From contig OZ024743.1 in assembly GCA_964016885.1 (NCBI GenBank), positions 273,296,001 through 273,360,000 on the forward strand: a stretch of 64,000 bases of DNA, in the 5' to 3' direction. Below the pieces are notes generated by a model, which was not told the DNA's origin, did not search any database, and saw nothing but the letters and a program-made list of their open reading frames with translations. Below are positions 24,162 through 55,166 of the stretch, one piece after another. Numbering within the stretch: position 1 is the stretch's first letter; each line of letters starts with the position of its first letter. The translations under genes and the position numbers were made by a program. Source of the DNA: Eledone cirrhosa (lineage: Eukaryota).

Positions 24162-26780
24162 TTAGGTATAGGATTATCCAAGATGTAGTGATGGTTAATT
24201 ACTACACTGGATATGGTTGACGAACGGTAAGAGGTTACTCTACGAGTTATGGAAGAATTGTTCAAGAAACTTAGTTCCTGGTCCTTCAGTATTCCGGAGT
24301 GTATATAAAGAATGAATAATAACAGGTAGACATCATAAAAAGGTAATTTATTCCGTGTGCTTACAAGTGTTTCCAGGGTGGTACTGCAGCCTAGTTCCGC
24401 TACGTGCAAATTCACAAGTATTTGCAGAACTCGAATATCCAATGCTGTGACCACTGTTTCCTCAGAGCAGAATGGTAAATGTACAATGTAAAAACCCTTA
24501 AGTGGGATTGTTGGGGAAGATAGAGTGGAACAGGAAGAGAGAAAAGTAGGGAAGAAGGAGAGAGAAGGAAAGATATGCAGGGATTGGAGAAGTAGGAGAG
24601 AGTGGCTTGTAGATATCTTAATCAAAATGTTATGGTAGGGGTTTTATTAGTTACTTTTGGAGAGATGCGTAGATAGTTGAGGTCGGAATTATTTATTGCC
24701 CCAGAGGGCAGGTTCATAGATGTTGAGAGGGAGGTAGGTCAAAGGTGAGAGAGAGAGAGTGTAATGGATGTAGATAGAGATATATAGGTAGTGAGGGGAC
24801 AGATAAAGTATATGTGGTGAGTGAACTTTTGGTTTTGTAGTAGTAATCTAGGAATTGTACTGAGTTACCATGTATAGTGATAAGTAGTGTATTGTCTTGT
24901 AGTGTGGGGGGGGGAGAAGGTTGTTAGCTAGAAAGTGGTGTTGTAGTTACGGGTTCGAATGTTAAGTTATTTTATAGTGAGAGAATTTAGCTTTTAGTTT
25001 GTGGTTGCAGTATAATGATCGTTCAATTCTATCGTTAAGTAGTTTGTTTTTGGATTTTAGTATGTAAAATAGCTGAAGGTTACATAACCTGCAGTACTTC
25101 GATCCACTCCGATATGCATTTGCGCTGGAAAGTATATCCCATTTTAAGGTGAACTGTTGGTTGTGTTCACGGAGTTGCCAGGTCTTGTTGGCGAGCGTGG
25201 TCACAAAACGGTGATTCGGATGTTTGATTGAGAATCGATGACGGTACCAGCGAGATTTAAACGATGTGGTGGTAGATCCGATATAATACCATTTCTGGTC
25301 GTTCGATTCAACCGTGCATTGGTAAACAATGTTGGACTTTAGGCATTCATTCTGCAATGGACATCTTTCAGGTAGATGGCAGTTACATTCTTTGTTGTGG
25401 GTAGCGGGTATACCATGGATAGGTTGTGATAGCGGTACAGGTGGGTTGTGCAATACCCGTCTCCCATTTAGTGGTTGGGAGGCAGATATTGCGTTCTGCC
25501 CATCTGTTACTAAAATGTTTTGTTTTGTAGAGTTGTTTAATTGCCTTAAGTTAAGTTTTTTTATGTATGCTTCAAGGTTTGGTGCCGTGGAGTATGATAG
25601 TCTAATAGTTTTAGAATTCAGAATTTTGCTGTACTTATGGGAACTAGGGAAGTGTTTATTGATTAATTTAAAGAATGAAAGGGATAGTTTTGTACTAATC
25701 GAGGCATTAAAAATAGGATTATACCAGATATACTTTCTACAACGTGATTTATTTGGTGGTGATCTTCTATTATTAGTATGTCTGGTAGTACCGTGTGTGT
25801 GTGCTTGTGTTTTAGTCCCCCGGTTACGTATACCTTGATTACGTGTAGAGCTATGTGTGTTGTGGAAATTACTATCGATGTATTCTATTGTATCCCGGTG
25901 GTCAGCATTCCTTAATGCATTATTGTAGTATTCAGCATGTTCACTAAAAATATCTGAGTTAGACGATAGGCGAGAGATTCTAAGAGAAATACTCCGGCGA
26001 ACTGATTTGATCATGGAGAGTGGGTGGTTAGAGTAAAAGTCAATATACGTAAGGTTCTCATTTACCTTGTGGAAGGGTCGTATCTGTCCGGTATTTAAAT
26101 TAAGAGTTACGTCCAGAAAGTTTACTACTTTAAGATTGTATTCGTATGTTATATTTAGACCCAGTTCACTAAAATATTTTCTAATATTTTTCCGTAGCCT
26201 TTCAAGATTTTGGTTATTCAAGTTATTAACTAATAAGAGATCCCGTCATCTCTATATATCCCCCCCTGTAGATTACTAAATCTACTATGTAATATGTGGG
26301 CTATGTAAATTCCCACGAGATCCGTGACCTCCGCCGAGTCGTTGGAACCCATGGTAATATCGAAATTTGTGGGTCTGTCCTTACGTTCCCAGTAGCAGTT
26401 ATCGAACTTAATAATGGTTTTTCTAGCCTCGAGAATAATATTAATTTCGTCCTCTGTTAGGTCGGAATTGGCCTTAGCAAACGATAGGGCCTTACGTAAA
26501 GTGCTTGGTGAGATGGAAGAGTAGTATTCGTCTATGTCAAATTGTATAAACTTAGATTTATTCTTATTCTTAACATTATTAAACCAGCGAATTGCTTCGC
26601 TAGTGTTGCCCCATAATTTAATTTCAATTTTCTTTTTCACTTGAGTTATTACTCTGTCAAGTATATGTTTACTAATTTTCCCTATGTCTGATTTAGAAGG
26701 GCATATAAGTCTAATCTTGGGGTTAGAGTCAAAATTTACCTTATGGTCCTTCAGGTTGAAGGTGGGGGTAGCGGGTATAA
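24162..26780 (-). mobile_element. Penelope-like element, left (inverted) arm: 5'-truncated RT + GIY-YIG, 3' UTR and extra ~140-bp tail
   Basis: ORFs 26230-26640 and 24962-26221: FDIDEYY, TMGS, IYRDDG, FLDVTL, CNC..CPL...C, IVYQC..YYIGST...R, CRLC. Confidence 0.93.
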
Positions 26781-29558
26781 GCTTTCGAACAGGACTTATT
26801 GAAAACTACCATGAACATTAAGTTCAACAGACATAGAAATAATGAGCTGCAGAACAACATGAAAACCCTACTCCGAAGATTGCAAAATACCAATGGAATT
26901 GTTGTGAAAGCTGACAAGACTTCTAACGTATATACCATGGATATCGATACGTATAATAATTTCATACGCAACGAACTACACAAAAAATATAGAGAAACAA
27001 ATGAAACTACGCTAGCAAATATTAACAACGAGGCATATAAAGTGGTAAAGAATCTCAAGATAGACGATAGAACCGAGCCGATTATACCCGCTACCCCCAC
27101 CTTCAACCTGAAGGACCATAAGGTAAATTTTGACTCTGACCCCAAGATTAGACTTATATGCCCTTCTAAATCAGACATAGGGAAAATTAGTAAACATATA
27201 CTTGACAGAGTAATAACTCAAGTGAAAAAGAAAATTGAAATTAAATTATGGGGCAACACTAGCGAAGCAATTCGCTGGTTTAATAATGTTAAGAATAAGA
27301 ATAAATCTAAGTTTATACAATTTGACATAGACGAATACTACTCTTCCATCTCACCAAGCACTTTACGTAAGGCCCTATCGTTTGCTAAGGCCAATTCCGA
27401 CCTAACGGAGGACGAAATTAATATTATTCTCGAGGCTAGAAAAACCATTATTAAGTTCGATAACTGCTACTGGGAACGTAAGGACAGACCCACAAATTTC
27501 GATATTACCATGGGTTCCAACGACTCGGCGGAGGTCACGGATCTTGTGGGAATTTACATAGCCCACATATTACATAGTAGATTTAGTAATCTACAGGGGG
27601 GGGGGGGATATATAGAGATGACGGGCTCTTATTAGTTAATAACTTGAATAACCAAAATCTTGAAAGGTTACGGAAAAATATTAGAAAATCTTTTAGTGAA
27701 CTGGGTCTAAAAATAACATACGAATACAATCTTAAAGTAGTAAACTTTCTGGACGTAACTCTTAATTTAAATACCGGACAGATACGACCCTTCCACAAGA
27801 TAAATGAGAACCTTACGTATATTGACTTTAACTCTAACCACCCACTCTCCATGATCAAATCAGTTCGCCGGAGTATTTCTCTTAGAATCTCTCGCCTATC
27901 GTCTAACTCTGATATTTTTAGTGAACATGCTGAATACTACAATAATGCATTAAGGAATGCTGACCACCGGGATACAATAGAATACATCGATAGTAATTTC
28001 CACAACACACATAGCTCTACACGTAATCAAGGTATACGTAACCGGGGGACTAAAACACAAGCACACACACACGGTACTACCAGACATACTAATAATAGAA
28101 GATCACCACCAAATAAATCACGTTGTAGAAAGTATATCTGGTATAATCCTATTTTTAATGCCTCGATTAGTACAAAACTATCTCTTTCATTCTTTAAATT
28201 AATCAATAAACACTTCCCTAGTTCCCATAAGTACAGCAAAATTCTGAACTCTAAAACTATTAGACTATCATACTCCACGGCACCAAACCTTGAAGCATAC
28301 ATAAAAAAAAACTTAACTTAAGGCAATTAAACAACTCTACAAAACAAAACATTTTAGTAACAGATGGGCAGAACGCAATATCTGCCTCCCAACCACTAAA
28401 TGGGAGACGGGTATTGCACAACCCACCTGTACCGCTATCACAACCTATCCATGGTATACCCGCTACCCACAACAAAGAATGTAACTGCCATCTACCTGAA
28501 AGATGTCCATTGCAGAATGAATGCCTAAAGTCCAACATTGTTTACCAATGCACGGTTGAATCGAACGAACAGAAATGGTATTATATCGGATCTACCACTA
28601 CATCGTTTAAATCTCGCTGGTACCGTCATCGATTCTCAATCAAACATCCGAATCACCGTTTTGTGACCACGCTCGCCAACAAGACCTGGCAACTCCGTGA
28701 ACACAACCAACAGTTCACCTTAAAATGGGATATACTTTCCAGCGCAAATGCATATCGGAGTGGATCGAAGTACTGCAGGTTATGTAACCTTGAGCTATTT
28801 TACATACTAAAATCCAAAAACAAACTACTTAACGATAGAATTGAACGATCATTATACTGCAACCACAAACTAAAAGCTAAATTCTCTCACTATAAAATAA
28901 CTTAACATTCGAACCCGTAACTACAACACCACTTTCTAGCTAACAACCTTCTCCCCCCCCCCCACACTACAAGACAATACACTACTTATCACTATACATG
29001 GTAACTCAGTACAATTCCTAGATTACTACTACAAAACCAAAAGTTCACTCACCACATATACTTTATCTGTCCCCTCTCTATCTATATATCTCTATCTACA
29101 TCCATTACACTCTCTCTCTCTCACCTTTGACCTACCTCCCTCTCAACATCTATGAACCTGCCCTCTGGGGCAATAAATAATTCCGACCTCAACTATCTAC
29201 GCATCTCTCCAAAAGTAACTAATAAAACCCCTACCATAACATTTTGATTAAGATATCTACAAGCCACTCTCTCCTACTTCTCCAACCCCTGCATATCTTT
29301 CCTTCTCTCTCCTTCTTCCCTACTTTTCTCTCTTCCTGTTCCACTCTATCTTCCCCAACAACCCCACTTAAGGGTTTTTACATTGTACATTTACCATTCT
29401 GCTCTGAGGAAACAGTGGTCACAGCATTGGATATTCGAGTTCTGCAAATACTTGTGAATTTGCACGTAGCGGAACTAGGCTGCAGTACCACCGTGGAAAC
29501 ACTTGTAAGCACACGGAATAAATTAACTTTTTATGATGTCTACCTGTTATTATTCATT

Positions 29559-29565
<7 letters not shown>
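26781..29565 (+). mobile_element. Penelope-like element, right arm: longer 5'-truncated copy with frameshifts at homopolymers
   Basis: ORFs 26799-27635, 27644-28321 and 28414-28905; PLE-typical KADKT motif, RT and GIY-YIG; ends in (TA)n. Confidence 0.93.
29395..29519 (+). ncRNA. Hammerhead-like motif with ~85-nt stem II domain (mirror copy at 24350-24473 -)
   Basis: TGCT-CTGAGGA-AACAGTGGT...ACCACC(G/C)TG-GAAAC-ACTT-GTA-AGCA in the PLE 3' UTR. Confidence 0.55.
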
Positions 29566-29600
<35 letters not shown>

Positions 29601-37304: not shown

Positions 37305-37335
<31 letters not shown>

Positions 37336-37336
<1 letters not shown>

Positions 37337-38968
37337 AGTTGCATTTATCTTGCTTTATGTTCATACGAGTTATCACCAAGTCACAACCAGTGACCTCAAG
37401 AGACAACAAGGTCCGCCATGTTCAAGAAAGAACATACATACTCACACATGCATCTTTAGTGTTTAGACTTGTGATGTACTTATATTGACAGAATCTTCCT
37501 TAGTATATGGGCAGTTCCCATTAGTACTATCTTTTGTATTTCTCCTATACGCGGGTTTCCTGGGATTTGCGATATGTAATCATTAGACCCCTTAGGTATC
37601 ATTCCCAGAGCGCCTACAACCACTGGTATTGTCTTAGTTCTCAATTTCCACATTTTTCCAATTTCTATCTCCAGGTCCTTATACTTGCTAAATTTTTCAA
37701 ATGTTTTTATAGATACATTCTTGTCTATTGGAACAGACATATCAATTAGCAGGCATACCCTCTTTTGAAAGTCTTTCAATATTATATCAGGTCTGTTTGC
37801 ATCTATTTTTCGGTCTGTTTGGATGCTAAAGTTCCACAAGATTGAGATGTGATCTTTTTCAAGTATGGGAGGTGGTTGATGCTCCCACCAATTCTTTTGA
37901 TGGGGCAGGTCAAAATGCTTACACATTATCCAATGTATGTATTGTGTATTGTGCAGCTCTGTCATGCCTGTTTAGGTATTCGGCTGGAGCTATAGGACTG
38001 TACATTGAAATTATATGGTCAATGGTCTCTGGTTGTTTTTTGCATACACGGCATAATGGGCTGCATCCATTTTTTATTATGTTGGCTTGGTAATTTTTTG
38101 TTGGCAGACACTGCGTCTTGTGCCGATATAATCAGTCCTTCAGTCTCCGATTTCAGTCCAGAGGATGCCAACCACTGATGGGTTAAAGTTTTGTCAACAT
38201 CAGGATTGTTAGCTCGCTCTGGGTATTTTCCATGAAGAGGCTTTTCTTGCCATTTCTTAGCCAGTTTCTGTAGCAGTTCTTTCTTTGCAGTTACTTTTAC
38301 CTGCTTTACTTTTTCTGTGTTTTCCATTTCAGCAGTAAATGGGACTGCTGAAATGTGTAGTCCATTACTGTATCTTTGTGAATCTTTTGTAATGGAATAT
38401 GATCTTTTGATGCTTTCGTGTTTCAAAACGAGTTTGATCATCCAATCATGTGATTCCCTTAGATATGTAGATAATCCAATTGTTGCAGTTTTCAACGCAA
38501 TGTCTAACTGGATTAACCCACGTCCTCCTTCTTTCCTAGGGAGATATATTCTATCTATATCTGCTTTAGGGTGATGCATTCTGTGCATGGTTAAGAATTT
38601 TCGAATTTTTGTATCGAGGCTACGGATCTCTGTGCTTGACCAGTTGATGACATTGTAACTGTAGGTTACTACTGGTATAGCAGGCGTGTTTATGGCATCG
38701 ATCCTACTCCTTGCATTCAATTCCGTTTTTAAGATTGCTCTCACTCTGCGGTAACATTCCTTCCTTATCCTTTCCCTCATTGTCGAGTACTTGATTCCGT
38801 CTCCTTCACAAACACCTAGATATTTGTAAGTATATTCTTGATCAAGTTCTCTTATCACGTGCCCCCGATCAAGATTAATGTCTGAACTCTTCAGCAGCTT
38901 TCCTCTGGTGAACGTTGCTTTGGCGCATTTATCCAGACCAAACTCCATTTGAATGTCATCACTGAACT
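37336..38968 (-). mobile_element. R4/Dong family B, copy B3
   Basis: ORFs 38019-38948 and 37480-37965; TTA junctions. Confidence 0.93.
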
Positions 38969-38980
38969 TATTATTATTAT

Positions 38981-40603
38981 TTGCATTTATCTTGCTTTAT
39001 GTTTATACGAGTTATCACCAAGTCACAACCAGTGACCTCAAGAGACAACAAGGTCCGCCATGTTCAAGAAAGAACACACATATTCACACATGCATCCTTA
39101 GTGTTTAGACTTGTGATGTACTTATATTGACAGGATCTTCCTTAGTATATGGGCAGTTCCCATTAGTACTATCTTTTGTATTTCTCCTATACGCGGGTTT
39201 CCTGGGATTTGCGATAAGTAGTCGTTAGACCCCTTAGGTATCATTCCCAGAGCGCCTACAGCCACTGGTATTGTTTTAGTTCTCAATTTCCACATTTTTC
39301 CAATTTCTATCTCCAGGTCCTTATACTTGCTCAATTTATCAAATGTTTTTATAGATACATTCTTGTCTATTGGAACAGACATATCAATTAGCAGGCATAC
39401 CCTCCTTTGAAAGTCCTTCAATATTATATCAGGTCTATTTGCATCTATTTTTCGGTTTGTTTGGATGCTAAAGTTCCACAAGATTGAGATGTGATCTTTT
39501 TCAAGTATGGGTGGTGGTTGATGCTCCCACCAATTCTTTTGATGGGGCAGGTCAAAATGCTTACACATTATCCAATGTATGTATTGTGCAGCTCTGTCAT
39601 GCCTGTTTAGGTATTCGGCTGGAGCTATAGGACTGTACATTGAAATTATATGGTCAATGGTCTCTGGTTGTTTTTTGCATACACGGCATAATGGGCTGCA
39701 TCCATTTTTTATTATGTTGGCTTGGTAATTTTTTGTTGGCAGACACTGCGTCTTGTGCCGATATAATCAGTCCTTCAGTCTCCGATTTCAGTCCAGAGGA
39801 TGCCAACCACTGATGGGTTAAAGTTTTGTCAACATCAGGATTGTTAGCTCGCTCTGGGTATTTTCCATGAAGAGGCTTTTCTTGCCATTTCTTAGCCAGT
39901 TTCTGTAGCAGTTCTTTCTTTGCAGTTACTTTTACCTGCTTTGCTTTTTCTGTGTTTTCCATTTCAGCAGTAAATGGGACTGCTGAAATGTGTAGTCCAT
40001 TACTGTATCTTTGTGAATCTTTTGTAATGGAATATGATCTTTTGATGCTTTCGTGTTTCAAAACGAGTTTGATCATCCAATCATGTGATTCCCTTAGATA
40101 TGTAGATAATCCAATTGTTGCAGTTTTCAACGCAATGTCTAACTGGATTAACCCACGTCCTCCTTCTTTCCTAGGGAGATATATTCTATCTATATCTGCT
40201 TTAGGGTGATGCATTCTGTGCATGGTTAAGAATTTTCGAATTTTTGTATCGAGGCTACGGATCTCTGTGCTTGACCAGTTGATGACATTGTATCTGTAGG
40301 TTACTACTGGTATGGCAAGCGTGTTTATGGCATCGATCCTACTCCTTGCATTCAATTCCGTTTTTAAGATTGCTCTCACTCTGCGGTAACATTCCTTCCT
40401 TATCCTTTCCCTCATTGTCGAGTACTTGATTCCGTCTCCTTCACAAACACCTAGATATTTGTAAGTATATTCTTGATCAAGTTCTCTTATCACGTGCCCC
40501 CGATCAAGATTAATGTCTGAACTCTTCAGCAGCTTTCCTCTGGTGAACGTTGCTTTGGCGCATTTATCCAGACCAAACTCCATTTTAATGTCATCACTGA
40601 ACT
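38981..40603 (-). mobile_element. R4/Dong family B, copy B4 (B3/B5 recombinant)
   Basis: Same 5' truncation point as B3; its 3' part shares variants with B5. Confidence 0.92.
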
Positions 40604-40615
40604 TATTATTATTAT

Positions 40616-41673
40616 TTGCATTTATCTTGCTTTATGTTTATACGAGTTATCACCAAGTCACAACCAGTGACCTCAAGAGACAACAAGGTCCGCCATGTTC
40701 AAGAAAGAACACACATATTCACACATGCATCCTTAGTGTTTAGACTTGTGATGTACATATATTGACAGGATCTTCCTTAGTATATGGGCAGTTCCCATTA
40801 GTACTATCTTTTGTATTTCTCCTATACGCGGGTTTCCTGGGATTTGCGATAAGTAGTCGTTAGACCCCTTAGGTATCATTCCCAGAGCGCCTACAGCCAC
40901 TGGTATTGTTTTAGTTCTCAATTTCCACATTTTTCCAATTTCTATCTCCAGGTCCTTATACTTGCTCAATTTATCAAATGTTTTTATAGATACATTCTTG
41001 TCTATTGGAACAGACATATCAATTAGCAGGCATACCCTCCTTTGAAAGTCCTTCAATATTATATCAGGTCTATTTGCATCTATTTTTCGGTTTGTTTGGA
41101 TGCTAAAGTTCCACAAGATTGAGATGTGATCTTTTTCAAGTATGGGTGGTGGTTGATGCTCCCACCAATTCTTTTGATGGGGCAGGTCAAAATGCTTACA
41201 CATTATCCAATGTATGTATTGTGCAGCTCTGTCATGCCTGTTTAGGTATTCGGTTGGAGCTATAGGACTGCACATTGAAATTATATGGTCAATGGTCTCT
41301 GGTTGTTTTTTGCATACACGGCATAATGGGCTGCACCCATTTTTTATTATGTTGGCTTGGTAATTTTTTGTTGGCAGACACTGATCTTGTGCCGATATAA
41401 TCAGTCCTTCAGTCTCCGATTTCAGTCGAGAGGATGCCAACCACTGATGGGTTAAAGTTTTGTCAACATCAGGATTGTTAGCTCGCTCTGGGTATTTTCC
41501 ATACAGATGCTTTTCTTGCCATTTCTTAGCCAGTTTCTGTAGCAGTTCTTTCTTTGCAGTTACTTTTACCTGCTTTGCTTTTTCTGTGTTTTCCATTTCA
41601 TCAGTAAATGGGACTTCTGAAATTTGTAGTCCATTACTGTATCTTTGTGCATCTTTTGTAATGGAATATGATC
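40616..41673 (-). mobile_element. R4/Dong family B, copy B5
   Basis: ORF 40733-41596 with intact CCHC knuckle and RLE. Confidence 0.93.
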
Positions 41674-41722
<49 letters not shown>

Positions 41723-41723
<1 letters not shown>

Positions 41724-44700
41724 GTTGCATTTATTTTGCTTTATGTTCATACGAGTTATCACCAAGTCACAACCAGTGACCTCAAGAGACAACAAGGTCC
41801 GCCATGTTCAAGAAAGAACATACATACTCACACATGCATCTTTAGTGTTTAGACTTGTGATGTACTTATATTGACAGAATCTTCCTTAGTATATGGGCAG
41901 TTCCCATTAGTACTATCTTTTGTATTTCTCCTATACGCGGGTTTCCTGGGATTTGCGATAAGTAGTCATTAGACCCCTTAGGTATCATTCCCAGAGCGCC
42001 TACAACCACTGGTATTGTTTTAGTTCTCAATTTCCACATTTTTCCAATTTCTATCTCCAGGTCCTTATACTTGCTCAATTTTTCAAATGTTTTTATAGAT
42101 ACATTCTTGTCTATTGGAACGGACATATCAATTAGCAGGCATACCCTCTTTTTAAAGTCCTTCAATATTATATCATGTCTATTTGCATCTATTTTTCGGT
42201 CTGTTTGGATGCTAAAGTTCCACAAGATTGAGATGTGATCTTTTTCAAGTATGGGAGGTGGTTGATGCTCCCACCAATTCTTTTGATGGGGCAGGTCAAA
42301 ATGCTTACACATTATCCAATGTATGTATTGTGCAGCTCTGTCATGCCTGTTTAGGTATTCGGCTGGAGCTATAGGACTGCACATTGAAATTATATGGTCA
42401 ATGGTCTCTGGTTGTTTTTTGCATACACGGCATAATGGGCTGCATCCATTTTTTATTATGTTGGCTTGGTAATTTTTTGTTGGCAGACACTGATCTTGTG
42501 CTGATATAATCAGTCCTTCAGTCTCGGATTTCAGTCCAGAGGATGCCAACCACTGATGGGTTAAAGTTTTATCAACATCAGGATTGATAGCTCGTTCTGG
42601 GTATTTTCCATACAGGTGCTTTTCTTGCCATTTCTTAGCCAGTTTCTGTAGCAGGTCTTCTTTGCAGTTACTTTTACCTGCTTTGCTTTTTCTGTGTTTT
42701 CCATTTCAGCAGTAAATGGGACTTCTGAAATGTGTAGTCCATTACTGTATCTTTGTGCATCTTTTGTAATGGAATATGATCTTTTGATGCTTTCGTGTTT
42801 CAAAACGAGTTTGATCATCCAATCATGTGATTCCCTTAGACATGTAGATAATCCAATTGTTGCAGTTTTCAACGTAATGTCTGACTGGATTAACCCACGT
42901 CCTCCTTCTTTCCTAGGGAGATATATTCTATCTATATCTGCCTTAGGGTGATGCATTCTGCGCATGGTTAAGAATTTTCGAATTTTTGTATCTCTGTGCT
43001 TGACCAGTTGATGACATTGTAACTGTAGGTTCAATGGCAAGCGTGTTTATGGCAACGATCCTATTCCTTGCATTCAATTCTGTTCTTAAGATTGCTCCTA
43101 CTCTGCGGTAACATTCCTTCCTTATCCTTTCCCTCATTGTCGAGTGCTTGATTCCGTCTCCTTCACAAACACCTAGATATTTGTAAGTTTTTTCTTGATC
43201 AAGTTCTCTTATCACGTTCCCCCGATCAAGATTAATGTCTGAACTCTTCAGCAAATTTTGTATTTTGTCTTTTCCTGGGGATTTCCATTTGCTGGTTTTT
43301 CTTAGAGCCAATCGCAACTGTTCAACTGTTATATTTTCCCATATTTGTTCCTCAAGGTGAGCTGTATCTTTCATTTGTCTGTCTATCCATGGGGCATGTA
43401 TGTTATGAACTTTTTCTTCCGCCCAGATCTTTTGCCAGAATTCTTGCACTTCCTCCTTGGGTGGTATTGATTTAGCAGTTATTGTTGACTTACCAATTTT
43501 TCTGTAGAAGTTTCTTTGGTTGTTTTTGAACATATTGTCCTTATAGAATCTAGATCGTTTTTCAAAGCGCCTTATACGAGCAGCCTTGGCCGACACTTTT
43601 TGCTTGATTATTTCTATCAGCATGTCTATGTCACTTGTTGATTTTATACTGTACTTTCTTTTCAATTTTCTAAGTTTAGTTTGTTTAACATGTTCACCTA
43701 CTTTATAGTTTGTTAAAATTTCTATGTCAGATCGGAGAAGGTTTATTTGGCGATTGATGTTCTCTTGCCAAGTAGATTTTTTGTGGGAATTCCTTTGTTT
43801 TTTCATCTTCACTCCACATAAGTGAGTGGTGACTTTAGCCGATGCATAATAGAGATGATTTAAATCAGTAATGTTTAGCTTGATTGTGATGATAATGTTT
43901 TTGAGAATTATGTTAGTCTTGTGTATTATCTTTTGGTTCTGTTTGGAGTTCTGGATCTTAGGGAGGGTGTGTCGTCGCCCCATGTCAGATTCTTTCATTT
44001 TCATCCATTCGATCATAATTCCATCCTACAAGTTGGCAAGTTCATTCTCATTCATTTCTTTATCATTTACGATCTCATTATTTTCATTTGGAGTTTCATC
44101 TTGAGCATGCACTCCCTCCACTTTTTCGATCCTTTCTTTAATTTGTTCTGTTGTCAGTGATTCCGCCCCAACCCTGGGATTCGAAGTGTTATAATTTACC
44201 TCATTTTCACTGACACATGTTTCATTTTCCCTTCGCTGACTTTGTGCTAATAGCTTGATCTGATCAATTTCTATATCAGTTAGTAACTTTTTGATTACAA
44301 TATTTCTTCGTATATTGGCTAGTTTGTTACTGTCAATATAGCCTTTTGGGGGGCGGGATGTTTCTTTTTCCAGTTGATATATGTCTGTTCTGTATTCGAT
44401 ATATTTGATGGGTAGGACATGGCAGTGTAGAAAGCCTCAAGGACTTCTTTATTATCTTCCCTTGTCCATTTCTCTCTCTTTTTCTTTGGATTTCTTGGTG
44501 GTGAGCATGGAGGGCCAACAGTAGGAGTATTCCGGTTATGGGAGGTCTCCAGCTCCGAAGTGATGGGAAGGTTTGAACCATTAGCTGATTTTTCGACCCC
44601 AGTCTGGTTCCTCTCTGAGGGACGCGGCCCTTTTTTACTCGGGTGACGGCCGATCCGGTATGAGATTTTATCATTAGACATTTACTTTATTTTGTCGCGT

Positions 44701-44845
44701 TTTATCCTTATCCGCCAAAGGGTAATCATTTCGTGTTACCACTTTTAGAACGAGTGTCAACCAAGACTAGAGGGGTCGTTCTCCCCTAGAGACACGGCTA
44801 TTCCCCGCCGGCTGCCATCCCGGTATTTCTTGGTCACGGGGTTTT
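41723..44845 (-). mobile_element. R4/Dong family B, copy B6: retains the 5' UTR and N-terminus, RT core deleted
   Basis: Starts MSNDK (44681) with KWTRE motif; ORF 42943-44016 joins KSPGKDKIQN directly to LLKSSDIN; intact RLE at 41866-42549. Confidence 0.92.
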
Positions 44846-44889
44846 CTTTTTTGTTGTTTTTTTAAATTGTTATTATCATGAGTGGTTCC

Positions 44890-45918
44890 TTAATGTGAAC
44901 ATTGCGTGGCTTAAGAATGAAATTATTAACAATTGTCTCCACTCCAGGCACAAGGTCAGCACTCACCCAGTGCATCACAATAATATAATATACTTTTTGC
45001 TGAAGTTTCCTGTTATTGTTGTTGGCTATGTCGGTGGTGGCGCTGGGGCTTTTTATATTGTTGGTGAGGAGGGGGGGGGCAGCAATGCCATAGATGTTGA
45101 CGTTTGGCCGGTGGCCGGGTCACTAAGTCAATCTATTTATATCTTTTGCTAGCCTCTCCCTTGTCTAGTGATACCGTGATACCGCCACCTTCCCCTTTCT
45201 TAAGTTAACAGGGGTATAGTGGTGGTAGCAATGAAGGAGTGGTGGCGGCGGTGATGGGATAGTGGTACCAATGATGGATGGAGTAGTGGCGGCGGTGGGG
45301 TTGTCGTTACTGAGTTTTGTTGAATGGACAATTCTTTTTGATATGTAGTATCTATGCGTTTGTGTGGCGTATGTTTAATATATGTGTTGAATAGACTAGT
45401 TTTGTTTGATCTGTAGTATCTATACGTTTGTGTCGCGTATGTTTAATGTATGTGTTGACATATTCTTTTAATATTGGAATTAAACATTTTGTTAAAACTT
45501 GAGACAATAATAATAGTAATTATTATTATGATGCTGGGATTGGTGGTGGTGGTGGTGAAATTGCCGTTATCTGGCTGTTATATTTAGTGTACACAGCGGG
45601 GTGATGGGGTAGGTGGTGTATCAAGTCTATGGTGTTGGTGAAATTGCTGTTACTTGGCTGTTCTATATAGTGTAGACAGAGGAGGTTTTCTTCCATTTAT
45701 AACCATTTTCTTTTTTGAATATAAAATATATAATACAAAATTGAATATTTGAGCGATATAACAATATATTATGGATCCGAAATTTTATGAGACTTGATTC
45801 GGTGATTTATGCATCATTTGTACTAAGAATTTATTTCACAATTGATTTAAATATGTTAAAAATCAAAAACTTACGGGAGCGATTTCATGACCTTCTAGCA
45901 CAACGTGCGTCTTCTTAC

Positions 45919-45920
<2 letters not shown>
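44890..45920. repeat. Unclassified GT-rich repeat X, copy 1
   Basis: Shares blocks with 49760-51225 (GGTGGCGGCGGTGATGGGATAGTGGT; AAACTTACGGGAGCGATTTCATGACC); internal ~46-bp direct repeat at 45345/45413. Confidence 0.65.
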
Positions 45921-48900: not shown

Positions 48901-49640
48901 GTTCAATTCATCTACCACTAAATTTAGGATGTCAACCGAATCTTGTCCTAGCCCGTCAGCATTCATCTCCTCAGTGGCCGTATCTCTGTTCCAGGTATTA
49001 TTTATCTCAGTACTCAGATCATTGTCTGCTTCGGGTGGTTCCTCCGTTCTCAGGACCTCCTCACCTTCATTTCCCACCGGCTCGCTTGTCTGGCATACTA
49101 CACCCGCCATCTCCAAGCCATTCTCTCTGCTCAGTTCCTCCAGTTCCAGCTCGCTTATCCACCCATTAGTTCTTATTACCCGAGCCTGCCCGGCCAATTT
49201 TTGTTCATCTAATTTAAATAAACCAATCTCGTTCCAGATGTTATGCATCCGTCTCCTGTAGCCCCTCTCCTTGGGGTTACTTTTCTGGTAGCATTGCATA
49301 ACAGTTCTATTCAATTCTTTCGTCCAGTTGGTTCTGGCCCCTTTCCTTCTTCTCCTTCCTCCAACATCAGCAGTATTTGGTTGACAGTCAGGTTCCTGCT
49401 GCTGAGCCAGGGGGCACCTGTTGGGTGAGAGTCTGCCACATGACGTTCTAGTCTCCATTTCACCGTTATTCGAACTGTTTATGTTTGATATTTAAACACT
49501 CTTATCGAGGATTGGCGAATGTATGTTTACATAGCCATCTGTGGATCCGCCATCCCACTTGGCCCTTGTGTGGCACTATCACCACGCTGTATACGAACAC
49601 ACATAAACAAACAAACACACAGGCAGAAAGGGCCCCAGAA
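45992..49640 (-). mobile_element. R4/Dong family A, copy A4: near full length with few frameshifts
   Basis: ORFs 48253-49458 (METRT..NWTKELN), 46613-48256 (complete RT) and 46298-46609 (RLE); 3' UTR followed by long (TAA)n. Confidence 0.95.
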
Positions 49641-54300: not shown

Positions 54301-55162
54301 TTGGATTGTATTTGCGAGTTTTTGAAGTTGTTCTCTATCATTTATACTAGAATGTCTTACTACTGCAAGCTCATCAGTATTTTTTGCTTTAATTCCTTCA
54401 TAGTCTCCCTGTGTTCTTCAGCATATGTTTGGTTATCAATTACTGTTTCTGTGTCCCTCTCCTGGCTATTTTCAGCGGTTTCAATAGGGCTTCTCATTTT
54501 TACAAACCTATTTGTGATTTTGTCAGATGGAGGTTTTTCAGTAAAGACATGTGACTGGTTACTATCTCCAGGAGATTCTTCAGTTCTTTCATCATTTCTA
54601 TTTATGTCATTCTCCACGGCCTGCTTGATCGCAGTTAGTTCAGTGTCTGTGAGTCTATTATTTCTAAAGATATACCTCCTTACATTTGCCAACTTATTTA
54701 CATCTATATCACGTCTGCTAGCTTGATTCCGAGTTTTCCAGATTTTGTAGGAGTTTAAAGTGTGTCTGTCTTGTGATTGCTTACCTAATGCATAGTAATA
54801 TGCATATATTACTTCTTTATACTCTTCTCGGGTCCATTTCATCCTTTTAGGTTTTTCTTTTTGAGGTGGTTTGGGTGGTGGATCTGGAGGGCTCGAGTTG
54901 GGGCAATCCCCGATCAAGTGACCAACCAGGTCCATCATTGGAGAAGAGTTTGTGCCAGAGGAGGACTTTTCGATCTCAGGTTGGCACCTTCCTGAGGGAC
55001 GCGCTTCCTGATTAACCATAGGAAAAGCGATTTAGTATTGTGTATTAATTTTTATTTGTTCATCTCGCAGTACATGCTTGCATTACGCATGGTATTGGAC
55101 GTACATGGAAAGTTGCCCGGCTCTGTGGGTAGTGCATTTGCTGGATGGCACTGAGATCATTA
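51325..55162 (-). mobile_element. R4/Dong family C, full-length but degenerate
   Basis: Starts MVNQE (55019) with KWTREEY; YRLITCL, EQKGC, WIDYKEAFD, YMDDLKL, CRFC..H...C, RHD, IDMSIP, VGGLG. Confidence 0.92.
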
Positions 55163-55166
55163 TTAC

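What the first reader, a model, noticed from the sequence alone, without database searches (positions are those of the whole stretch)
44747..44845. Multi-pseudoknot RNA at the exact 5' end of Dong family B: candidate new ribozyme or leader fold
Seen on the sense (minus) strand in ~95 nt: CCCCG/CGGGG; GACCAAGA/TCTTGGTT; CCGG/CCGG hairpin; CTAGGGG/CCTCTAG hairpin whose loop AGAACGA pairs with downstream TCGTTCT; and GTGTC/GACAC. The three 3' strands are contiguous (TCTTGGTT-GACAC-TCGTTCT). The imperfect pairs are G-U only on the sense strand. Established: R2, R4 and RTE elements release their 5' ends with HDV-like ribozymes. I could not fit a canonical HDV fold: an alternative GAC-CCCTCTA-GTC P3/L3 exists, but P4 and J4/2 are missing. 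Inference: an atypical self-cleaving or translation-initiating structure that frees the element from read-through transcripts of the array.
Basis: partly seen in the sequence, partly recalled or inferred. Interest (0 to 1): 0.75.

Follow-up and report, generated by a model that had tools for sequence, protein, structure and literature searches.

The report
Knotted leader RNA shared across retrotransposons
This stretch of a jumping gene's front region keeps its base pairing as its letters change across relatives and matches a conserved piece known from unrelated jumping genes only as a sequence; it lies about 1,070 bases inside this family's usual start and likely works as a non-cutting folded RNA that shields the RNA's front end and helps ribosomes load.

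Summary
The fold is real, but it is not at family B's 5' end and does not fit HDV or twister ribozymes. Of 30 unbiased copies, 15 start about 1.07 kb upstream and 28 run at least 240 nt past it. The 3' half (44787-44745) matches the RTE 5'-UTR / Ceph-SINE domain that Kojima 2018 described by sequence only. A model built without family B hits it at E=2.6e-9, the only significant hit in the window. The 5' half is a second, less certain knot. It begins two relatives directly after TAA repeats, and about 2% of B copies also join TAA there (23 places against 3 and 4 at control sites). A third small knot sits 13-16 nt before the start codon in four lineages. Best reading: a non-cutting leader that stops 5' trimming and helps load ribosomes; weak self-cleavage is not excluded. 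No structure or function for the domain was found in Rfam or the papers searched.

The parts
41723..45919 (-). Family B non-LTR retrotransposon copy (R4/Dong type) between two TTA tracts; this copy has frameshifts and an internal loss of about 810 nt in the RT region at 43253
   Evidence: an intact sister copy gives a 1216-aa ORF with RT and R2-protein similarity
44926..45919 (-). Upstream leader carrying the family's usual 5' end; its first about 380 nt resemble family A's front (78%); a weak match to a repeat elsewhere in the window at 44927-44978
44846..44925 (-). Short pre-leader shared with the older family D (70% over 60 nt), ending in an A-rich run; D keeps a fossil TAA-repeat junction just before the fold
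44795..44841 (-). 5' knot (module 1): helix 44841-37/44807-03, hairpin 44823-20/44811-08, and GCC(R) at 44798-95 pairing with 44817-14 or 44836-33; hotspot of 5' junctions at its edge
44745..44787 (-). Core (module 2) = RTE 5'-UTR / Ceph-SINE conserved domain: 5-bp helix 44787-83/44775-71 crossed by 7-bp helix 44782-76/44753-47, plus 3-bp hairpin 44767-65/44758-56 with loop TTGGTT
44759..44835 (-). Long-range pairing 44835-30 with the loop 44764-59 (6 bp; 8 bp, plus 44795-91/44758-54, in an alternative fold seen only in B and D)
   Evidence: sequence read directly; no two-sided change seen
44697..44720 (-). Small H-type pseudoknot (module 3), ending 15 nt before the ORF start codon
41866..44681 (-). 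ORF (start codon at 44681, preceded in frame by a stop codon), broken in this copy

Best explanation
The stretch is the first two of three conserved pseudoknot modules in the leader of a Dong-type retrotransposon, and it likely works without cutting, as a cap substitute: the 5' knot likely stops 5'-to-3' trimming and so sets an RNA end, and the core with the downstream knot likely helps load ribosomes at the start codon. Shown: the core's base pairing, its homology to the RTE/Ceph domain, its internal position, the junction hotspot at the first helix, and the 13-16 nt spacing of the third knot to the start codon. Inferred history: the ancestor began at the first helix inside TAA repeats and was transcribed by read-through; the B/D line then gained about 80 nt, and B a further 1 kb of leader, which left the fold internal. 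Inferred use by SINEs: capturing the core would park their RNA on ribosomes, near newly made reverse transcriptase.
For: Core pairing: 93.9% of 165 cells, 10 of 15 pairs with two-sided change, slid controls 29-46%. Model without B or D finds it at 38.8 bits. By eye, 28 of 29 published elements with both strands shown pair all 7 bases of the long helix. Not a cutter: the core lies mid-UTR and inside SINEs (PMC5786205), downstream of a canonical HDV-like ribozyme in L135, twice, and at least 208 nt inside 4 copies of an APE-type family. 5' end: L143 and L342 start at the first helix right after TAA repeats with no HDV fit; 23 B places join TAA within 12 nt of it, 19 of 20 read joining in the last A run or at the first C, against 4 and 3 at control sites, the second with the same AAAA-C context. 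Translation: module 3 is 100% paired in 6 sequences with 2 two-sided changes and lies 15, 16, 14 and 13 nt before the start codon in B, L132, L135 and L143. Precedents read as passages: uncapped R2 and L1Tc leaders are thought to act as IRESs; a double-pseudoknot fold protects against 5' exonuclease. A host partner explains sharing between APE and RLE elements.
Against: No RNA-level or biochemical evidence. Ordinary pseudoknots do not stall Xrn1 (PMC10321173). Only about 2% of B copies end there, which microhomology plus DNA-level trimming at a cDNA hairpin could also give. Non-coding SINEs keep the core, which fits a protein handle at least as well. In D the spacing to the start codon is 27 nt; L142 has the core without module 3 and L132's contig shows module 3 without a core hit. 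Most B copies have an upstream AUG between core and ORF. Families A and C of this window have no model hit. Thirteen of 28 D copies were scored as having a shortened 5' knot, most by one shared loss of about 20 nt (the query was such a copy). The 5' knot rests on few lineages: 52 of 500 shuffles reach its score.
Confidence: 0.4

Rival explanations
1. The fold is a handle gripped by the element's own RT/endonuclease protein, like the R2 5' pseudoknot, used in RNP assembly and 5' joining.
For: Repeated, independent capture by SINEs and retention of 5' UTR parts in bipartite RTEs (PMC5786205 passages); R2 protein binds a 5' pseudoknot; a bound protein could explain junctions at the fold's edge; two unreviewed scan notes favour a handle for what may be the same domain.
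Against: The same core serves an APE-type and an RLE-type protein; related families A and C lack a model hit; it does not explain the fixed spacing of module 3 to the start codon.
Confidence: 0.27
2. The 5' knot, alone or with the core, is a slow or muted self-cleaving ribozyme of a new or very divergent kind that cuts 0-4 nt before the first helix; it was the ancestor's 5' end device and was damped after B gained an upstream leader.
For: It starts L143 and L342 at the TAA junction, the place where Bombyx Dong has an active HDV-like ribozyme (PMC3774820 passages); the strand order resembles HDV; CUAA follows the 5-bp helix in D and L143; sharp junction hotspot in several B subfamilies; B has an A-C mismatch in the register that L143 and L342 pair fully.
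Against: No HDV loop or P1.1 match, no twister core; the C is T in L342, L135a, L142 and the APE family, and the purine after it pairs in the hairpin; few invariant unpaired bases in the 5' knot; about 98% of copies do not start there.
Confidence: 0.13
3. Only the core is functional; the 5' half is a decayed remnant and the junction hotspot is a by-product of A-rich microhomology and cDNA hairpins.
For: Weak statistics for the 5' half; two competing registers; the shortened D subfamily amplified; the 8-bp and GTGTC/GACAC helices occur only in B and D.
Against: The first helix keeps 5 of 5 pairs with three different central pairs in B, L143 and L342; a control with the same AAAA-C context gives 3 places against 23.
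Confidence: 0.15
4. The conserved domain acts as DNA (promoter, enhancer or factor site), as Kojima 2018 speculated.
For: High sequence conservation among distant elements; 5' UTR position.
Against: Two-sided changes in 10 of 15 pairs and G-U pairs on the sense strand are RNA signatures.
Confidence: 0.05

Closest known systems
Conserved RTE 5'-UTR domain / 3' half of the Ceph-SINE domain (Kojima 2018, PMC5786205; section 19, passages, supplement part 13 and search hits read)
   Same: Same layout and near-identical spacing; mid-5'-UTR position; already noted in one R4 element (R4-1_ADi) and one Ingi element.
   Different: The paper gives sequence similarity only and speculates on regulator binding; no RNA fold. 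Family B's version is diverged and is flanked by an enlarged 5' knot and a start-codon-proximal knot.
HDV-like ribozyme at the 5' end of Bombyx Dong, R4, R2 and RTE (PMC3774820, passages and section 16 read)
   Same: Same element group and TAA target; similar strand order; a relative here (L135) has a canonical fit at its 5' end.
   Different: No HDV L3/P1.1, a linker breaks P2-P3 stacking, the candidate catalytic C is not conserved, and most copies begin 1.07 kb upstream.
Twister T-variants of Schistosoma Perere-3 (PMC8501958, sections 3 and 17 read)
   Same: An A run before the first helix at a 5' junction; a CCGG-closed loop that pairs downstream.
   Different: The conserved GC, GUCCCAAGC and GAGGG elements are absent.
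R2 5' RNA pseudoknot (protein binding, IRES-like) (PMC6765202, passages read)
   Same: Internal structured 5' RNA of an RLE retrotransposon with proposed translation and protein-binding roles.
   Different: No sequence comparison was made; this domain is shared across APE and RLE clades and SINEs.
Exoribonuclease-resistant RNAs (PMC10321173, passages read)
   Same: Pseudoknot-dependent folds that leave a defined RNA 5' end.
   Different: Viral; no Rfam xrRNA match here; ring topology and Xrn1 stalling untested.

Membership tests
RTE 5'-UTR / Ceph conserved domain | Similarity to the domain in RTE-type and related elements | tested here: met
   Model from 11 non-B, non-D sequences (one APE-type family, an unclassified repeat family, three metagenome Dong-type loci) hits 44732-44790 at E=2.6e-9. 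Match to the published consensus sequences was by eye only.
RTE 5'-UTR / Ceph conserved domain | Position in the middle of the 5' UTR, not at the end | tested here: met
   About 1.13 kb from the usual 5' end, 65 nt before the start codon.
HDV-like ribozyme | L3 loop of U-S-C-N-C-G type with P1.1 to G residues directly after P1 | tested here: not met
   Descriptor finds no fit in the B, A or C leaders, L143 or L342, but does fit L135.
HDV-like ribozyme | Conserved catalytic C in an unpaired J4/2 | tested here: not met
   C in B, D and L143; T in L342, L135a, L142, L172 and the APE family; the following purine pairs in the 3-bp hairpin with a two-sided change.
HDV-like ribozyme | Full-length copies begin at the first base of P1 | tested here: not met
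   0 of 30 unbiased copies; about 23 of at least 1,015 genome-wide.
HDV-like ribozyme | Rfam model match | tested here: inconclusive
   No hit, but Rfam also missed the canonical-looking fit in L135.
HDV-like ribozyme | Site-specific self-cleavage | not testable with these tools
   Needs a cleavage assay.
Twister ribozyme | Conserved L2, L4 and L1 sequences forming T1 and T2 | tested here: not met
   Compared with Table 1 of PMC8501958; no Rfam hit.
xrRNA | Xrn1 stalls at the fold; ring-like topology | not testable with these tools
   Only indirect: junction hotspot.
IRES-like leader | Cap-independent initiation, ribosome binding | not testable with these tools
   Only indirect: module 3 lies 13-16 nt before the start codon in 4 of 5 lineages.
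R4/Dong clade (host element) | Single ORF with RT and C-terminal zinc knuckle plus restriction-like nuclease; insertion in TAA repeats | tested here: met
   1216-aa ORF, RVT_1, match to R2 proteins over residues 449-1162; TAA tracts at both ends. Nuclease motif read by eye from recalled knowledge.
R4/Dong clade (host element) | Phylogenetic placement with named Dong/R4 references | not tested

The most novel reading that the evidence does not exclude
Probability: 0.12. Interest if true: 0.85.

Novelty: new variant of a known kind. Interest (0 to 1): 0.55.

Why it matters
How uncapped or read-through LINE RNAs get a defined 5' end and are translated is open for most clades, and why unrelated SINEs keep capturing the same RTE 5'-UTR piece was left unexplained in the paper that described it. 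A covariation-supported fold for that piece, with exact helices, makes both questions testable with short synthetic RNAs. It could also inform design of RTE-based gene-writing templates, whose UTRs are optimised empirically (whether RTE-1_MD has this domain was not checked).

Tried and rejected
Single-sequence folding and shuffles: uninformative. Rfam: no ribozyme, IRES or xrRNA hit at the fold in the window or in relatives. Twister reading: rejected. Sequencing runs: no RNA holder listed; seven of eight runs laid held only low-depth, near-identical or partial pieces and added no new pair types. Viral and prokaryote collections: the model was run on six of their 14 protein-matched loci and found no domain; pattern scans gave nothing usable. 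A degenerate protein-motif pattern returned only B copies. Family C seemed to start at its own fold, but most copies share sequence upstream, so that was dropped. One alignment had a wrong coordinate and two misaligned rows and was replaced, which leaves out L143, L135b, L350 and D copy L232; one search leaves out L143 and L350. One search used a mis-registered structure and is superseded. In one search the aligner shifts L143's first strand by one column, so that helix scores 73% there; read directly it pairs 5 of 5. Ruminski 2011 and Berry 2010 were not held. Searches for a published structure of the domain (listings, with passages of selected papers) found none; most subscription papers are not in the library, and supplements other than that of PMC5786205 were not read.

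Full report
Setting. The window lies in a 3.0-Gb animal assembly and holds several non-LTR retrotransposons joined by TAA tracts. The finding is on the minus strand of a family B copy. An intact sister copy encodes 1216 aa with an RT domain and similarity to R2 proteins; with the TAA target this fits the R4/Dong type, but no tree with named references was made. Earlier scan notes call the host an octopus; I did not check that.

The observation. From one sequence they are not above chance (z = 0.05; 101 of 200 shuffles tie or beat 32 pairs). The place is not the family's 5' end. An internal 22-mer has 1,015 exact matches. Of the first 30, 15 reach 45910-45916, 28 run at least 240 nt upstream, 2 join TAA about 25 nt upstream and none starts at the first helix. 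The fold ends 65 nt before the start codon at 44681.

Variation within B. Among 103 B loci held (not a random sample), one pair of the 7-bp helix is A-U in 88, G-C in 12, G-U in 1 and unpaired in 2; position 44795 is G in 84 and A in 19, which turns a G-U into A-U in the loop pairing. In the deepest sequencing run these three sites were the only common variants inside the fold apart from the window's private change at 44813.

Relatives. An older family D in the same genome, a further diverged copy L342 and an APE-type family, and metagenome Dong-type elements L135, L142, L143 and L172 carry the same 3' core. On 11 equal-length sequences a 15-pair structure (5-bp helix crossed by the 7-bp helix, plus a 3-bp hairpin) is 93.9% paired with two-sided changes at 10 pairs; slid controls give 29-46%. 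Caveat: L135a and L172 were picked by a pairing descriptor and L142 by eye, and related rows are not independent. A covariance model from 11 sequences without B, D or L342 finds 44732-44790 at 38.8 bits, E = 2.6e-9, the only significant hit in 64 kb. It also finds D, L342 and L350, but not L143 or families A and C.

What the core is. [quoted passage not shown] The supplement's alignments show the same layout. Counting by eye in part 13, 28 of 29 elements with both strands visible pair all 7 bases of the long helix (G-U allowed) through many different sequences; 12 of the 29 are AviRTE-like, and 3 partly shown elements were left out. Those sequences were chosen by sequence similarity, not structure. 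The paper proposes no fold for the domain in the passages read, and eight searches found no paper that does.

The 5' half. A descriptor finds B's arrangement in L143, directly after TAA repeats, along with a few unrelated chance hits. The first helix pairs 5 of 5 in B, L143 and L342 with a different central pair in each; the hairpin and the loop pairing each show one two-sided change between B and L143 (52 of 500 shuffles, so weak alone). The GCC(R) strand has two possible partners: the strand after the first helix (4 of 4 in L143 and L342, one mismatch in B) or the hairpin loop (B, L143). The 8-bp helix and GTGTC/GACAC are confined to B and D and compete with the universal 3-bp hairpin; the 6-bp part on the loop is compatible with it. 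D keeps a fossil TAA junction before the first helix, and 13 of 28 D copies were scored as shortened in this half against 8 intact.

Not a known ribozyme. An HDV descriptor fits L135 near its 5' end, upstream of two copies of the core, but not B, L143 or L342. The would-be catalytic C is not conserved. Twister's conserved elements are absent. Rfam gives nothing, though it also missed L135.

A minority 5' end. TAA repeats join within 12 nt of the first helix at 24 places (49 overlapping matches), one of them a D copy. Of 20 read, 19 join in the last A run or at the first C, in different flanks and subfamilies. Control sites give 4 places and 3 places, the latter with the same AAAA-C context. 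Reverse transcriptase has unwound the fold by the time it reaches this edge (inference), so the excess points to RNA ends there, or to trimming or protein binding at joining. At about 2% of copies, against half at the upstream end, it is not efficient cleavage.

A third knot. 44720-44697 is a small H-type pseudoknot, 100% paired in 6 sequences with 2 two-sided changes, 13-16 nt before the start codon in B, L132, L135 and L143, and 27 nt in D. That a pseudoknot can position a start codon on the 40S subunit is known for the HCV IRES (seen only as a title in a reference list).

Mechanism. Shown: fold of the core, homology, internal position, junction hotspot, spacing. Inferred: a non-cutting leader in which the 5' knot blocks 5'-3' trimming and the core with the third knot loads ribosomes (0.40). 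Rivals: handle for the element's protein (0.27), decayed 5' half with a by-product hotspot (0.15), slow or muted new ribozyme (0.13), DNA element (0.05). Unreviewed scan notes reached similar readings on the captured leader and on the RTE domain; they are leads, not support.

Verdict. Its core is a known sequence domain whose RNA fold appears undescribed; function is untested. Interest 0.55.

Noticed in passing
L139:84-167, L145, L146 and L153 5' ends: Several metagenome Dong-type elements begin with a tRNA-like head instead of a ribozyme (L139 scores 30.3 bits to Rfam tRNA; the others by eye), suggesting a third way to make the 5' end.
   Followed up: partly
window 49513-49558 (-): Family A has a similar crossed-helix arrangement about 55 nt before its start codon, plus long-range helices; the model does not hit it.
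   Followed up: partly
window 55050-55165 (-): Family C's leader has its own hairpins and a loop-to-downstream pairing, with no resemblance to B's core.
   Followed up: no
window 44600-44660 (-), and L132, L135, L142, L143, L145, L146, L158, L167, L192: The first coding bases look conserved beyond what the codons need, CpG-rich, perhaps a further RNA domain inside the ORF.
   Followed up: no
L135:3360-3690; L350:1200-1560: A Dong-type leader with a canonical HDV-like fit followed by two copies of the core; L350 in this genome looks like a decayed relative.
   Followed up: partly
L338, L339, L344, L347-L349, L351-L353, L355: An unclassified, apparently non-coding repeat family in this genome carries the core.
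   Followed up: no
G000:C28:114444297-114459481 (L024-L027): Four near-identical B copies in tandem at a 4,955-base period.
   Followed up: no
window 37324-41675: Tandem repeats of B's 3' part at 98% identity.
   Followed up: no
window 24302-29567: A 2.5-kb inverted repeat at 98.8% with a GIY-YIG match, likely Penelope-like.
   Followed up: no
L325-L327, L331, L332: Dong-type ORFs on contigs of a bacterial MAG, likely host contamination.
   Followed up: no
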